A DNA stretch of 63,892 nt, filler included, from Octopus bimaculoides (lineage: Eukaryota): assembly GCF_001194135.2 (NCBI RefSeq). It is 5 parts of 5 records of this genome, joined end to end, with 100 filler letters (N's around TTAATTAATTAA, not from the genome) between each part and the next. Parts side by side here need not be neighbours in the genome. Positions count along the whole stretch, not along the records: positions 1 to 23,575 come from NC_068981.1; positions 23,676 to 32,191 come from NC_068986.1; positions 32,292 to 54,636 come from NC_068989.1; 2 more parts are not named here. One strand, given 5' to 3'. The notes under the pieces were generated by a model that was not told the origin of the DNA, ran no database searches, and worked only from the letters and a program-made list of their open reading frames with translations. Below are positions 10,355-51,277 of the stretch, in pieces. The position numbers were made by a program, and so were the translations under genes. Position 1 is the stretch's first letter. Every line of letters begins with the position of its first letter.

Positions 10355-10777
10355 CTCTTTTACTCTTTACTCTTTTACTTGTTTCAGTCATTTGACTGCG
10401 GCCATGCTGGAGCACCACCTTTAGTCGAGCAAATCGACCCCGGGACTTATTCTTTGTAAGCCTAGTACTTATTCTATCAGTCTCTTTTGCCGAACCGCTA
10501 AGTGACGGGGACATAAACACACCAACATCAGTTGTCAAGCAATGCCAGGGAGACAAACACAGACACACAAACACACACACACATATATTTGACCGTTGAC
10601 TGAACACTATTCAATTTTTTTTTCTCCGTGTTTTTCTCCTTGTCTCCGTATTCTTTCTGTTGAAGAGCGTAGCTCGAAACGTCAAAGACTTTCCGTATTC
10701 CCGAGCGTCATACTAATACATCCTTTTGTTATTTACACCACCTGTCCTCGTCTGTTGTTGTTTTTTCGTATATTCTC

Positions 10778-10813
<36 letters not shown>

Positions 10814-10897
10814 GACAGGCTTCTTTCAGTTTCCTTCTACCAAATCTACTCACAAGGCTTTGGTCGGCCCGAGGCTATAGTAGAAGACACTTGCCCA
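10355..10897 (-). mobile_element. SINE family A, interrupted in its internal (TA)n by an HHR element, 5' head lost
   Basis: 3' module 10355-10588, body 10812-10897; head replaced by a Tigger fragment. Confidence 0.85.
10652..10688 (+). ncRNA. Minimal type I hammerhead ribozyme motif (A6U core variant)
   Basis: TCTTT-CTGTTGA-A-GAGC-GTA-GCTC-GAAAC-GTC-AAAGA: helix I 5 bp, helix II 4 bp, palindromic ACGT in place of helix III, GUC site after 10683. Confidence 0.7.
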
Positions 10898-10902
10898 ATC
10901 CA

Positions 10903-11778
10903 AATAGAAGACCTTTTGAAGAAATAAAAGATCTATTTGGATTGATAGGCAGAATTCTCAGAATGCTACTCTTATTCAAGAAATCGTTCAGGAGAAGGCG
11001 TCATCTTTGATTGAGGAAAAAATATCCAGATGAGAAAGATATTGAGTTCAAGGCAAGTCAAGGATGGATTATGAGATTCAAAAACTGGAAAAGTTATCAA
11101 AGAAGAAATAAAAGGGACTTCAGATGTGAAATGTGTTAAAATCTTGTACTTATTATGCACAATCTTCGATACAGTTGTTCGACTCACCCCAAAAGATCGG
11201 GCAATCGCTACAACTTTTTCACATTTATCATGACATTTTATCATCGCCAACTTATCCTCCACCGTTATAGCATGACGCTTAGCACTTTCACTATGACTTT
11301 TCGTAGGAGGCATGGGGGCAAAAATTAAAGTTGCAGATACATGTGAATAAGAGAGTCTAAACGACAAACAACTGTAAAAAAAAATCTGACTTCAAAACAA
11401 TCGCGGGAATCACAACGGTACGTAATGATAGATATTGGAACTACCAGCGCAATATATGCTCCAAAAGATAGATAAATAAGATGACACAGCTGATTTCATG
11501 CTTAAGCGAACTAGGCTACACTACTTTATGGTGTGTATTTTAGCATTTACTGTATTTCAATATGATTTTGTAAGCTTTTATTCTTATTTATTGTAACGTG
11601 ATTTTAGGTGCTTTTAACGGATTTTAATGTTTTTACGATTCCATTATTATTGGCGGACTGACGTAAAGTCAAGTAAAACGATCTAACTTGATTTTTATTT
11701 TTCCATATATTACTTTTGAAAACCAACATATCTTCGAGAAGGACTCAAGTCAAAACAACTTAAGCCGAGGTATCTCTG
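10903..11778. mobile_element. Rearranged pogo/Tigger-like DNA transposon relic
   Basis: Plus strand 10903-11100 WIDRQNSQNATLIQEIVQEKA...EFKASQGWIMRFKNW (Tc5/CENP-B HTH). Minus strand 11313-11130 MPPTK...KRHAITVEDKLAMIK...IARSFGVSRTTVSKIVHNK (psq HTH). TIR-like end GCCGAGGTATCTCTG followed by TA at 11779-11780. Confidence 0.8.
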
Positions 11779-12994
11779 TATATATATAGGACGGGTTTCT
11801 TTCAGTTTCCATCTACCAAATCCACTGACAAGGCTTTGGTCAACCTGAGGCTATAGTANNNNNNNNNNNNNNNNNNNNNNNNNNNNNNNNNNNNNNNNNN
11901 NNNNNNNNNNNNNNNNNNNNNNNNNNNNNNNNNNNNNNNNNNNNNNNNNNNNNNNNNNNNNNNNNNNNNNNNNNNNNNNNNNNNNNNNNNNNNNNNNNNN
12001 NNNNNNNNNNNNNNNNNNNNNNNNNNNNNNNNNNNNNNNNNNNNNNNNNNNNNNNNNNNNNNNNNNNNNNNNNNNNNNNNNNNNNNNNNNNNNNNNNNNN
12101 NNNNNNNNNNNNNNNNNNNNNNNNNNNNNNNNNNNNNNNNNNNNNNNNNNNNNNNNNNNNNNNNNNNNNNNNNNNNNNNNNNNNNNNNNNNNNNNNNNNN
12201 NNNNNNNNNNNNNNNNNNNNNNNNNNNNNNNNNNNNNNNNNNNNNNNNNNNNNNNNNNNNNNNNNNNNNNNNNNNNNNNNNNNNNNNNNNNNNNNNNNNN
12301 NNNNNNNNNNNNNNNNNNNNNNNNNNNNNNNNNNNNNNNNNNNNNNNNNNNNNNNNNNNNNNNNNNNNNNNNNNNNNNNNNNNNNNNNNNNNNNNNNNNN
12401 NNNNNNNNNNNNNNNNNNNNNNNNNNNNNNNNNNNNNNNNNNNNNNNNNNNNNNNNNNNNNNNNNNNNNNNNNNNNNNNNNNNNNNNNNNNNNNNNNNNN
12501 NNNNNNNNNNNNNNNNNNNNNNNNNNNNNNNNNNNNNNNNNNNNNNNNNNNNNNNNNNNNNNNNNNNNNNNNNNNNNNNNNNNNNNNNNNNNNNNNNNNN
12601 NNNNNNNNNNNNNNNNNNNNNNNNNNNNNNNNNNNNNNNNNNNNNNNNNNNNNNNNNNNNNNNNNNNNNNNNNNNNNNNNNNNNNNNNNNNNNNNNNNNN
12701 NNNNNNNNNNNNNNNNNNNNNNNNNNNNNNNNNNNNNNNNNNNNNNNNNNNNNNNNNNNNNNNNNNNNNNNNNNNNNNNNNNNNTTACAAGATGCATTAT
12801 AGATAATGATAGATTAGCTCAAGCCAATATAGTTTTCGATCTGCATCTATTTGTAATACTAAAGTATCATCGCGAGATGAAGCGTTTTCCTCAAGAATAC
12901 AAAGCACCGCTCAACGAAATGAAATCGCGATCGCTAGATCGTGCACACCCTCATATATATAAACACACACACATACAGACACACACGCACACAA

Positions 12995-13039
<45 letters not shown>

Positions 13040-13069
13040 ACCATGAGTATAATCATGCTGTGGTTTCTG

Positions 13070-13225
13070 AAAGTCGAGCAGTATTACTCTCAACGTTATC
13101 TTCATCATTATGAAGCGTGTCATCATCTATCAGAGATCCTGCAGATGACACACCAGCCTTATGCTTCTTGACGAGAGCAAAGAACTCTTTCGGATTGACT
13201 TTTATTTTCCCACTGGATCACATTT
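13070..13225 (-). mobile_element. Possible LINE ORF2 linker fragment
   Basis: KIKVNPKEFFALVKKHKAGVSSAGSLIDDD resembles the CR1/L2/Jockey K.NPK.F...V...IGPL segment. Confidence 0.35.
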
Positions 13226-13285
13226 ATGTATCTATGTATGCATAAATATACACTCACATATATATATATATATATATGCATATAT

Positions 13286-48750: not shown

Positions 48751-49750
48751 TAAAGATATTATGACCGAGTGCTACATAGCATTCCAAACAATAAACTACT
48801 TTATGTCTGTAGGCACATTATGATGCTTTAAGAATCCCATCGGTTTTCTTCGATCATCTCTAATTAATCACTGATTTGTTATTTTCATACAAAAATAAAA
48901 ACAACATTAATGCTTTTAATACATTACATTCTCTTAAAAGAACCAGTTATTACTTAATCAGCTTGTTTCAGCAAAAATGATCACAGGAAAAGCACTAAAA
49001 AACAGGAGGTATATAAGAGATTTATTTATTTTATGGGATCCAAATAAGAAAACTTATTAAGGAGCTTTATTTCATTGTTTCACTGGGCAACATTAAGTCA
49101 TATGCTTGGTTCTCGTTTTGTTCTAGTTGTAGAAAATTGTCTTGGTAGTCATAAGGCAACGGAGGACATGCTTTCCAATTTCAATAACAGCATCAAGATC
49201 CTGTATCACCACAGTCACTTTAGTGGTTTTCAGAAAAGCTTGGTGATACGCATACAATAATTATCCATTTGAGATTCTTATATGAATAGATGCACATATT
49301 GGGTGTATGCAATGATAGTTCAGCCAACACACTCTGAGCGTGTGTGTGTGTATCTAATTGTATATATACTCAGAGTTCCCGGTGTTTGTCAATATGTGGT
49401 TGGTGTGTTGGTTGAACTAACATTGTATACACCCAAGTATGTGCATCTATTCATATAAGAATCTCAAATGGATAATTATTGGAACGTCTTACAAACCTTC
49501 ACTCTGTGCCACAAATAGATTACTTTTTTTTCCGTGAAACTGAGTATTTCTAGGTTTTTGTGCAAATTTGTGGGTGCATAACATAATGCACTTGTATATA
49601 TGTATGTATGTATGTATGCATGTATGCATGTATGTCATTTATGTATGTATGCCAACCTAGATCCAAGGCTCCTTCATTGGAATTTCAACATCAACAACAG
49701 GTATTTTTGTACGTGTGTATGCATGTGTGTTGTGTATGTATGTATGTATG

Positions 49751-49822
<72 letters not shown>

Positions 49823-50586
49823 CTATATATCTATATATGTGTATGTATATGTGTGTGCGCGCGCGTGTATATGTATATATCTTTGTGTTTGCATTTTCCC
49901 CTTCACCTCTTGGCACCGATGTTAATTGGTTTATGTCCTCGTATAACTAGCGATTCGGATAGAGACGGATAGAATTAGGATCAAATTTAAAAATGTAGGC
50001 CTTCAATCGATTTGTTCTACTAAGCCGTTTAAGCCGGTGCCCCAAAATGGCCACAGTCCAATGGCTGAAACAAGTAGCAGTAATATATAGAATTAGCATG
50101 TAATACATACACACACACACACGTATCAGAACAGAACTACCATAGAATGTGTGATACACACATGGTCGCAGATTATTGCTGGAGCCTTCAGAGAGATAGT
50201 TTTGGGTAAGCACCCCCACTCCTCTCTAGGAAGTCCTATAAAAGGAATTTCTTATGCATTGAATAGCTCGCCATGTTATGTTTTTATGTTTTATTTCTGA
50301 GTTACAGCAACTACAGATTCTAATGCAGTGCGCAATAAGATTTTTTCTTTTTGTGTGTTGAGATAAACCGATTTATTAATATGGATTTGTTTTAAAAGCA
50401 TGTACTGTATCATAACATTAATATTGTGGTTATTTTTGTATCAAAATAGCAGCTCATTATCTAATTAGAGTTGATACAATTTTTGAAACCATTGCACTAA
50501 ACAGCCCAGAGTAGGTTTAACTTCAAAAGCACCAAAGTATTAATGCAACAAGGGTCGCTAATTTCAGCACACGAGTGGATAGGGAA

Positions 50587-50637
<51 letters not shown>

Positions 50638-50767
50638 GTATCTCCAAAATTAGAGCTGATTAGAAAAAAAACACTGGTGTATTTTCGAGTTAGTACCCAA
50701 ATATTTGCAAGGCACCAGAATTTGTCATTGTTGTTGTTGTTGGACATTGCCATCAAAGATTTATTTT

Positions 50768-50920
50768 GTGGCTGCGTGGTTAAGAAATATGCTTCACAAC
50801 TACGTGGTTTCGAGTTCGATCCCACTGCGTGCCACCTTTGATAGGTACACCCTTCTATAATTTCGGTCAGATTAATGCCTAGTTAATGAATTTGATAGAC
50901 AGAAACTGTGTGGAAGAGCG

Positions 50921-50976
<56 letters not shown>

Positions 50977-51205
50977 ACCTATATATATATAAATATAAAT
51001 ATGTACGTATGTGTTTGTATGTGTCATTGCGTTTATGTTCGTCTTCCTCGCCACTTGACAATCGGTGTAGGTTTGTTTACATCAGTGTAAACTAGCAGTT
51101 CGGCAAAAAGTTCGACAGAATAGATAGCAGATTTAAAATAAGGACTGGGGTCAATTGCACTAATCTTAAAAGGCGGTGCTCCTGCGGGCCACTAACTGAA
51201 ACCAC
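50768..51205 (+). mobile_element. SINE family A with internal deletion and (CA)/(TA) expansion
   Basis: Head, partial body and 3' module recognisable. Confidence 0.7.
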
Positions 51206-51219
51206 TTAAAAAGGAAAAG

Positions 51220-51277
51220 CTTCGACAACTTATTTCGAGAAGCAGGTCGCATGTGACACTGTTCATCATCAGGCAAG
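51220..51277 (-). ncRNA. Type I hammerhead motif, orphan
   Basis: CTTGC-CTGATGA-TGAACAGTGTC-ACATGC-GACCTGCTTCTC-GAAAT-AAGTT-GTC-GAAG; CUGAUGA, GAAA and GUC intact, helices imperfect. Confidence 0.55.

What the first reader, a model, noticed from the sequence alone, without database searches (positions are those of the whole stretch)
10652..51277. Seven hammerhead motifs at five loci with unrelated flanks in 64 kb
Seen: HHR motifs at 10652(+), 13893(-), 18268(-)/19163(+), 23797(-)/24083(+) and 51220(-). They differ in N7, helix II length (about 11 to 65 nt) and palindromic helix III loop (ACGT, ACTCGAGT, ACATATGT, ACGT, ACAAGTTGT-like). The different palindromes would allow only family-specific dimerisation. 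Inference: the genome holds a large, diverse population of self-cleaving non-autonomous retroelements mobilised by PLEs (PLE GIY-YIG relics lie at 18.8, 35.3 and 36.2 kb). In an intron these could cut host pre-mRNA. HHRs in PLEs and metazoan retrozymes are known; I am not aware of a description of this diversity in octopus.
Basis: partly seen in the sequence, partly recalled or inferred. Interest (0 to 1): 0.85.

Follow-up and report, generated by a model that had tools for sequence, protein, structure and literature searches.

The report
Hammerhead relics of Penelope-like retrotransposons
The seven hammerhead-shaped RNA motifs are real but mostly damaged, and are likely leftover tails of Penelope-like jumping genes, a known arrangement, except that one very abundant repeat family carries the same change at a core position in nearly all copies, which is predicted to weaken cutting.

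Summary
All seven motifs are at the stated coordinates. Four of the five loci far exceed chance (4 hits with at most one defect against 0.02-0.04 in shuffles); 51220 is at chance level. Two loci are inverted duplicates, so there are five elements, and only 13893 is defect-free. The 18.2-19.3 kb locus is a 5'-truncated Penelope-like element (PLE) with an inverted copy, its hammerhead 260 nt after an endonuclease tail whose relatives have Hydra-clade motifs. Hammerheads in Hydra PLEs, including an Octopus bimaculoides family, are published (PMC8557442, File S2), and this scan noted such motif clusters in other genomes before. The 13.7-14.1 kb locus is a 356-nt non-coding unit with a 59-nt terminal repeat, retrozyme-like. 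Family-specific dimerisation fails in part, since two loci share ACGU. No host gene was found. The unusual result: the 10652 motif belongs to a very abundant repeat in which core position 6 is U, not A, with no A variant reaching 4% in four public runs. A fold kept while the core is predicted to be weakened makes this family a test of whether PLE hammerheads must cut. Cleavage is untested.

The parts
10592..10779 (+). Copy of a very abundant ~190-nt repeat, lying between two pieces of a SINE-like repeat and ending at an (AT)n tract
   Evidence: Depth starts in bin 10592-10599; 2977 and 10791 contigs laid in two DNA runs; flanks
10652..10688 (+). Minimal type I hammerhead motif with U at core position 6 (CUGUUGA), extra A, 4-bp helix II, ACGU palindrome, 5-bp helix I; predicted cut after 10683
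   Evidence: no variant at 10660 reaches 4% in four runs, 10683 varies C/U
13732..14146 (-). 356-nt unit (14146-13791) followed by a repeat of its first 59 nt; no endonuclease similarity; retrozyme-like or mini-PLE
   Evidence: 59-nt direct repeat at 96.6%; no profile hit; circular fold z -1.27
13893..13939 (-). Hammerhead motif with no defect under the Hydra-type descriptor: intact core, 4-bp helix II flanked by one extra base each side, 8-nt palindrome, 7-bp helix I; predicted cut after 13900
   Evidence: same layout as rows of PMC8557442 File S2 (compared by eye)
18230..18812 (-). 5'-truncated Penelope-like element: endonuclease tail, pyrimidine-rich 3' region, hammerhead, end at an AT-rich tract
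18610..18825 (-). 71-codon open frame, C-terminal part of a PLE endonuclease with Hydra-type relatives
   Evidence: 13 relatives at E<=0.001; profile of 34 longer RT-EN proteins hits at E 1.3e-6
18268..18355 (-). Hammerhead motif, intact core, 59-nt helix II segment, ACAUAUGU palindrome, one helix I defect; core 260 nt after the stop codon
18813..19287 (+). Inverted, shorter copy of the same element, with hammerhead 19164-19252 (C at core position 4, broken palindrome)
23750..24205 (.). Head-to-head fold-back of one element; motifs 23797-23881(-) and 24083-24167(+), 61-nt helix II segment, one unpaired base before the core; right arm ends at (AT)n
   Evidence: no endonuclease hit upstream
51220..51277 (-). 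Decayed hammerhead-like motif, intact core letters, three structural defects; at chance level on its own
34844..35379 (.). Second inverted pair of PLE endonuclease tails (35057-34844 on -, 35245-35379 on +), broken; no hammerhead recovered beside them
36142..36397 (+). Broken endonuclease relic (N-terminal GIY-YIG half and following part), cut off at a (CA)n tract
   Evidence: Profile E 6e-7 and 0.005

Best explanation
The motifs are likely the 3' tails of several Penelope-like retroelement families, mostly truncated and decayed, with a Hydra-type parent shown at one locus. Inferred working: an active element's endonuclease nicks a (TA)n tract, its reverse transcriptase copies the RNA from the 3' end and usually stops early or switches to leave an inverted copy, so the hammerhead-bearing tail is the part most often deposited. 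In active master copies two hammerheads of a tandem transcript would pair through the palindromic helix III and cut to release unit-length RNA. The copies here are mostly unable to do so. The 356-nt unit at 13.7-14.1 kb is probably a non-autonomous passenger copied slightly more than once round. The 10.6 kb family probably spread from a master that already had U at core position 6, so efficient cutting was probably not needed for its spread.
For: Shown: enrichment over shuffles; endonuclease tail 260 nt upstream of the 18350 core and 43 nt from cut site to element end; full-length relatives with Hydra marks, of 18 proteins >=670 aa RWK 13, DK[T/S] 18, YRDD 18, CxCx4-6CP 17, and ADKG 0 of 35; inverted head-to-head copies at two loci; ends at AT-rich tracts at 10780, 18229, 19288 and 24206; two more Hydra-type relics. 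From papers: inverted 5'-truncated copies, (TA)n targets and hammerheads are traits of PLEs and Hydra (PMC8557442); scattered, heterogeneous single motifs and close opposite-strand pairs are described (PMC4209133). U6; 31 of 32 unrelated metagenome matches with the same helix II and an upstream CTG have A6 and none U6; changes at A6 lower activity (PMC3088659; PMC9901934).
Against: Only one of five loci has a demonstrable endonuclease upstream; the other four scored at background. No reverse-transcriptase relic lies in the window. The 59-61 nt helix II segments are longer than any in the published tables I saw. The two other endonuclease relics have no recovered hammerhead. No genome was available, so parents of four families are unseen. 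No cleavage or dimer data. The 356-nt unit shows no special self-pairing (16 of 150 shuffles fold as well).
Confidence: 0.72

Rival explanations
1. Most loci are non-autonomous, actively self-cleaving retrozyme-type elements that borrow PLE enzymes.
For: The 356-nt unit with a 59-nt terminal repeat and a defect-free motif fits mussel retrozyme sizes of 350-390 bp; the 10.6 kb family is short and very abundant; four loci lack coding sequence upstream.
Against: No tandem array with two motifs on one strand in the window; 18.2-19.3 kb is a coding element; the most abundant family has a changed core; inverted pairs are a PLE trait.
Confidence: 0.2
2. Some motifs are host-adopted ribozymes that cut a host pre-mRNA.
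For: Sequence of the 10.6 kb family is present in two runs guessed to be RNA; intronic hammerheads are known in amniotes (PMC3088659).
Against: No host exon found in 165 translated stretches, apart from transposase fragments and two hits below Pfam's cut-off; motifs sit in repeats and carry defects; 3 lie on + and 4 on -; inverted loci are predicted to fold into duplexes.
Confidence: 0.04
3. The motifs are chance matches in AT-rich DNA.
For: Descriptors were post hoc; Rfam found none; 51220 is at chance level.
Against: 0 of 2340 and 0 of 2346 shuffles reach 4 hits at one defect; position behind an endonuclease tail; the same helix II and palindrome occur with the standard core in other animals' DNA.
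Confidence: 0.04

Closest known systems
Hydra-clade Penelope-like elements and their hammerheads, including Hydra-1_Obim of Octopus bimaculoides (Craig et al. 2021, PMC8557442; seen: passages, section 11, supplement parts 2 and 58)
   Same: C-terminal endonuclease tail of the same type, (TA)n ends, inverted truncated copy, hammerhead near the 3' end; extra bases flanking helix II and longer palindromic helix III as at 13893 and 51220.
   Different: Compared by eye, the listed oBim motif matches none of the seven; 59-61 nt helix II segments and U6 are absent from File S2; no full-length element in the window.
Minimal hammerheads of metazoan PLEs (Cervera and De la Pena 2014, PMC4209133; seen: main text parts 1-3 of 4, supplement file 2 part 2)
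   Same: 10652 matches the published consensus layout (extra base after A9, G10.1-C11.1, CG palindrome, short helix I); many families per genome; single motifs and opposite-strand pairs.
   Different: All listed motifs have A6; the known core variant is U3-A8; no cephalopod among the rows I saw.
Non-LTR retrozymes of animals (Cervera and De la Pena 2020, PMC7229834; seen: passages, sections 14 and 17)
   Same: Unit of 356 nt, non-coding, 45% GC, one type I hammerhead, more than unit length.
   Different: Only 1.17 units and one motif here, no array; circular RNA not shown; fold not significant.
Natural core variants at position 6: A6C of phage Bcep176 (Perreault 2011, PMC3088659; PMC7151607; passages seen)
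   Same: A natural change at A6 in an otherwise intact hammerhead.
   Different: A6C is a type II phage motif, slow with Mg2+ and better with Mn2+; here A6U in a minimal type I motif fixed in an abundant animal repeat, untested.

Membership tests
Minimal type I hammerhead of PLEs | Core CUGANGA ... GAAA ... UH | tested here: inconclusive
   Met in 5 of 7; U6 at 10657 and C4 at 19169
Minimal type I hammerhead of PLEs | Helix I and helix II of at least 4 bp around the core | tested here: inconclusive
   Clean at 10652, 13893 and 19164; one helix I defect at 18268, 23797, 24083; three defects at 51220
Minimal type I hammerhead of PLEs | Palindromic helix III segment allowing a dimer | tested here: met
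   Fully self-complementary in 4 of 7 (10657, 13932, 18350, 23876); broken in the two second arms; 6 WC plus 2 GU of 9 at 51272
Minimal type I hammerhead of PLEs | Covariation within a family | tested here: inconclusive
   10.6 kb family: no variant >=4% in helices I or II, so no covariation to count; cut-site base varies C/U. Other families have at most two copies.
Minimal type I hammerhead of PLEs | Self-cleavage as dimer | not testable with these tools
   Only contigs were available
Hydra-clade PLE | C-terminal GIY-YIG endonuclease with CxxC and CxH motifs | tested here: met
   Tail at 18610-18825 and relics at 34.8-35.4 and 36.1-36.4 kb match a profile of RT-EN proteins; not met at the other four motif loci
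Hydra-clade PLE | RT with RWK and DKT motifs and CxCx5C linker | tested here: inconclusive
   No RT in the window; met in relatives: 13, 18 and 17 of 18 long proteins. No tree was built.
Hydra-clade PLE | Insertion at (TA)n; inverted truncated copy | tested here: met
   AT-rich ends at three loci, inverted copies at two
Non-LTR retrozyme (13.7-14.1 kb locus) | Non-coding unit of about 170-400 nt with one type I hammerhead | tested here: met
   356-nt unit
Non-LTR retrozyme (13.7-14.1 kb locus) | Tandem copies, dimer or longer | tested here: not met
   1.17 units in this copy; other copies not examined
Non-LTR retrozyme (13.7-14.1 kb locus) | Abundant circular RNA | not tested
Rfam hammerhead families | Match to a covariance model | tested here: not met
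   No hammerhead among 109 matches at E<=5

The most novel reading that the evidence does not exclude
The 10.6 kb family is a hugely amplified PLE-dependent element whose hammerhead fold is kept while core position 6 is fixed as U, because the fold serves as the signal by which the PLE reverse transcriptase recognises its RNA, or cuts only under special ions or with a protein. It would be a natural experiment showing that PLE hammerheads need not be efficient cutters.
Probability: 0.2. Interest if true: 0.65.

Novelty: new member of a known kind. Interest (0 to 1): 0.33.

Why it matters
The main observation is ordinary: PLE hammerheads occur by the thousand in animal genomes and one is already listed for an octopus. 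The role of these motifs is still open (PMC8557442 says so). A very abundant family with a fixed change at a near-invariant core base, set beside an intact retrozyme-like unit and long-helix variants in the same genome, gives ready material to test whether cutting, or only the fold, is needed for spread.

Tried and rejected
Whole genome: none held. Rfam: only microsatellite-driven matches. Exact pattern for the 10.6 kb motif in metagenome contigs: 0; looser pattern in viral contigs: 4 matches, none with a core. Word-based protein searches with the 18.6 kb frame and with a frame across the 10.6 kb repeat: nothing. RNA contigs ending at 10681-10682, beside the predicted cut after 10683, and a depth drop there in X15: rejected as cleavage evidence, because the C/U variant at 10683 would break contigs at that point, table 6 listed no end pile-up, and the runs are only guessed to be RNA. 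By-eye endonuclease-like letters upstream of 23876 and 51272: at background among 692 tiles. MFE folds of single motifs: z from +1.8 to -2.5, not decisive. A sequence-only model of the 23.8 kb element found no third copy. Five short strings from four of the motifs were absent from the Craig supplement apart from one unrelated hit (lines are wrapped, so weak). Lunse et al. (PMC5785218), which reports many small PLE hammerhead variants, is not held; it may already list U6 or octopus motifs. File 1 of the PMC4209133 supplement could not be searched. P0005 (a repetitive protein) and P0023 were left out of the profiles. No earlier scan note on look-alike DNA.
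Full report
Setting. The window is AT-rich animal DNA with 5,783 N, many microsatellites and dozens of SINE-like repeats. Of 164 open stretches of 62 codons or more with little masking, I scanned 158 and the other six, plus one shorter stretch. Pfam found a CENP-B-type HTH fragment, a weak Mos1 HTH and two hits below cut-off that I take as compositional. No host exon was recognised; short exons would be missed.

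Observation. All seven motifs lie where stated. With a descriptor based on the minimal hammerhead of PMC4209133, 0, 4 and 6 motifs pass at 0, 1 and 2 defects, against means of 0.0009, 0.021 and 0.13 in 2340 local dinucleotide shuffles, none of which reached 4 or 6. With a second descriptor that allows the extra bases seen in published Hydra motifs, the counts are 1, 4, 6 and 9 at 0-3 defects against 0.0009, 0.039, 0.37 and 1.58 in 2346 shuffles. Both descriptors were written after seeing the motifs. So four loci are well beyond chance and 51220 is not separable from it. Rfam saw none.

Locus 18.2-19.3 kb. The two motifs belong to two arms of one element set head to head. The minus arm holds a 71-codon frame, 18610-18825, with 13 relatives at E<=0.001. 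An alignment of nine of these plus the window frame found 35 longer proteins. Among the 18 of 670 aa or more, 13 have RWK, 18 DK[T/S], 18 YRDD and 17 a CxCx4-6CP linker, and none of the 35 has ADKG; these are the marks given for the Hydra clade in PMC8557442 section 11. A profile of 34 of them hits 18.6-18.8 kb (E 1.3e-6), 34.8-35.4 kb (an inverted pair), 36.1-36.4 kb (E 6e-7) and weakly 25.2 and 27.8 kb, and finds no RT relic. The 18.6 kb hit is partly circular, since the search began there; the others are not. The core lies 260 nt after the stop and the predicted cut 43 nt from the element end. Both ends meet AT-rich tracts. This is the truncated-plus-inverted layout described for PLEs.

Locus 23.7-24.2 kb. 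A fold-back of one element, again 5' ends inward, right arm ending at (AT)n, left arm running towards a gap. Both copies have one unpaired base before the core and a 61-nt helix II segment that folds better than shuffles (z about -2.4 and -2.5). No endonuclease signal upstream. At this locus and the last, a read-through RNA is predicted to form 140 and 401 long-range pairs with the sense core paired to the other arm, so the two copies cannot act as dimer partners in one transcript.

Locus 13.7-14.1 kb. A 356-nt unit followed by its own first 59 nt at 96.6% identity, no endonuclease hit, and the only defect-free motif, laid out like Hydra rows in File S2 (by eye). The size fits mussel retrozymes (PMC7229834). 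Against membership: only 1.17 units, and the circular fold is unremarkable (16 of 150 shuffles as good). I infer a non-autonomous unit copied slightly more than once round.

Locus 10.6 kb. Twenty-two of 24 listed runs hold the stretch or part of it, 17 of them half the words or more, all of one coded organism; 12 may be the source. I laid four runs on 10560-10790 at 80% likeness: 2977 and 10791 contigs in the DNA runs, summed depth above 10^6 over the motif while long single contigs show about 35-50. That suggests tens of thousands of copies, but the tool warns that summed depth is no copy number. No variant at 10660 (core position 6) reaches 4% in any run, so U is close to fixed; contigs drop rare variants. 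Loose ends at 10672 (17 and 16 records in the DNA runs, agreement about 0.7) show a related form with a different base at position 7 and still U at 6. Helices I and II show no variant at 4%; the cut-site base 10683 is U instead of C in about 31-33% of DNA depth, which keeps the NUH rule; 10658 varies in about 5% in one run. The 5' flank is about as invariant, so this is not proof of selection, and there is no covariation to count. For contrast, 120 metagenome matches to the same helix II plus GAAACGT (a partial scan, 15 of 64 parts) include 32 with CTG at the core start, of which 31 have A6, one C6 and none U6; relaxing to one mismatch gives 69 with 4 U, mostly chance-like. None of these loci had an endonuclease hit at E<=0.001. 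Changes at A6 lower activity in PMC3088659, PMC7151607 and PMC9901934; none of the passages I saw measures A6U in a minimal type I motif.

Palindromes. They differ, but 10657 and 23876 share ACGU and pair 4 of 4, and the second arms have lost theirs. Specificity between families of different palindrome length is plausible and untested.

Mechanism. Shown: motifs, enrichment, inverted layout, one coding parent with Hydra-type relatives, AT-rich ends, near-fixed U6. Inferred from the literature: target-primed copying from the 3' end at (TA)n with truncation and inversion; dimeric cutting of tandem precursors in master copies, which is slow in vitro. Inferred here: most copies are inactive; the U6 family spread without efficient cutting.

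Novelty. Hammerheads in PLEs, many families per genome, are known; Hydra-1_oBim has one; 235 Rfam hammerhead hits are reported in giant squid (PMC6962438, passage); PLE expansion and 31 recently active families are reported in O. vulgaris with no mention of ribozymes in the main text (PMC13282606, passages). Searches for an octopus survey and for A6U or CUGUUGA found no description; the library lacks most subscription papers and Lunse et al.. Earlier scan notes report the same kind of cluster in other genomes. Verdict: new members of a known kind, with one unusual family worth a bench test. Interest 0.33.

Noticed in passing
window:13676-13727 (-): An eighth, decayed hammerhead-like motif just after the 59-nt repeat: perfect 5-bp helix II, GAAA, GCGC palindrome, shifted core, helix I only 3 bp; neither descriptor passed it.
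   Followed up: partly
window:25248-25376 (+) and 27824-27949 (+): Two weak further endonuclease-like relics (profile E about 0.01).
   Followed up: partly
window:10975-11391 (-): CENP-B N-terminal HTH fragment (Pfam E 7e-10), likely a Tigger/pogo transposase relic.
   Followed up: no
window:28586-28799 and 29074-29458: Inverted repeat pair and a weak Mos1-type HTH, likely mariner relics.
   Followed up: no
window:41331-43186: Inverted and direct copies of a repeat containing CTGACGA at 41967 and 43018 with no matching GAAA half.
   Followed up: partly
window:4919-5220, 23175-23538, 26737-27107, 40277-40660: Four copies of a ~370-nt repeat at 80-94% identity.
   Followed up: no
window:58366-58723: Tandem of a ~66-nt unit separated by (AAT)n tracts, 96-97% alike.
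   Followed up: no
L005-L124 (e.g. L006, L016, L020): Among metagenome matches, 20 carry CCGACGA (C at core position 4) with the same helix II and flanks as a CTGACGA group, suggesting another abundant family with a fixed core change in a different animal.
   Followed up: no
window:51441-51510 and 51774-51843: Short inverted repeat (76%) upstream of the 51220 motif, in keeping with another decayed inverted insertion.
   Followed up: no
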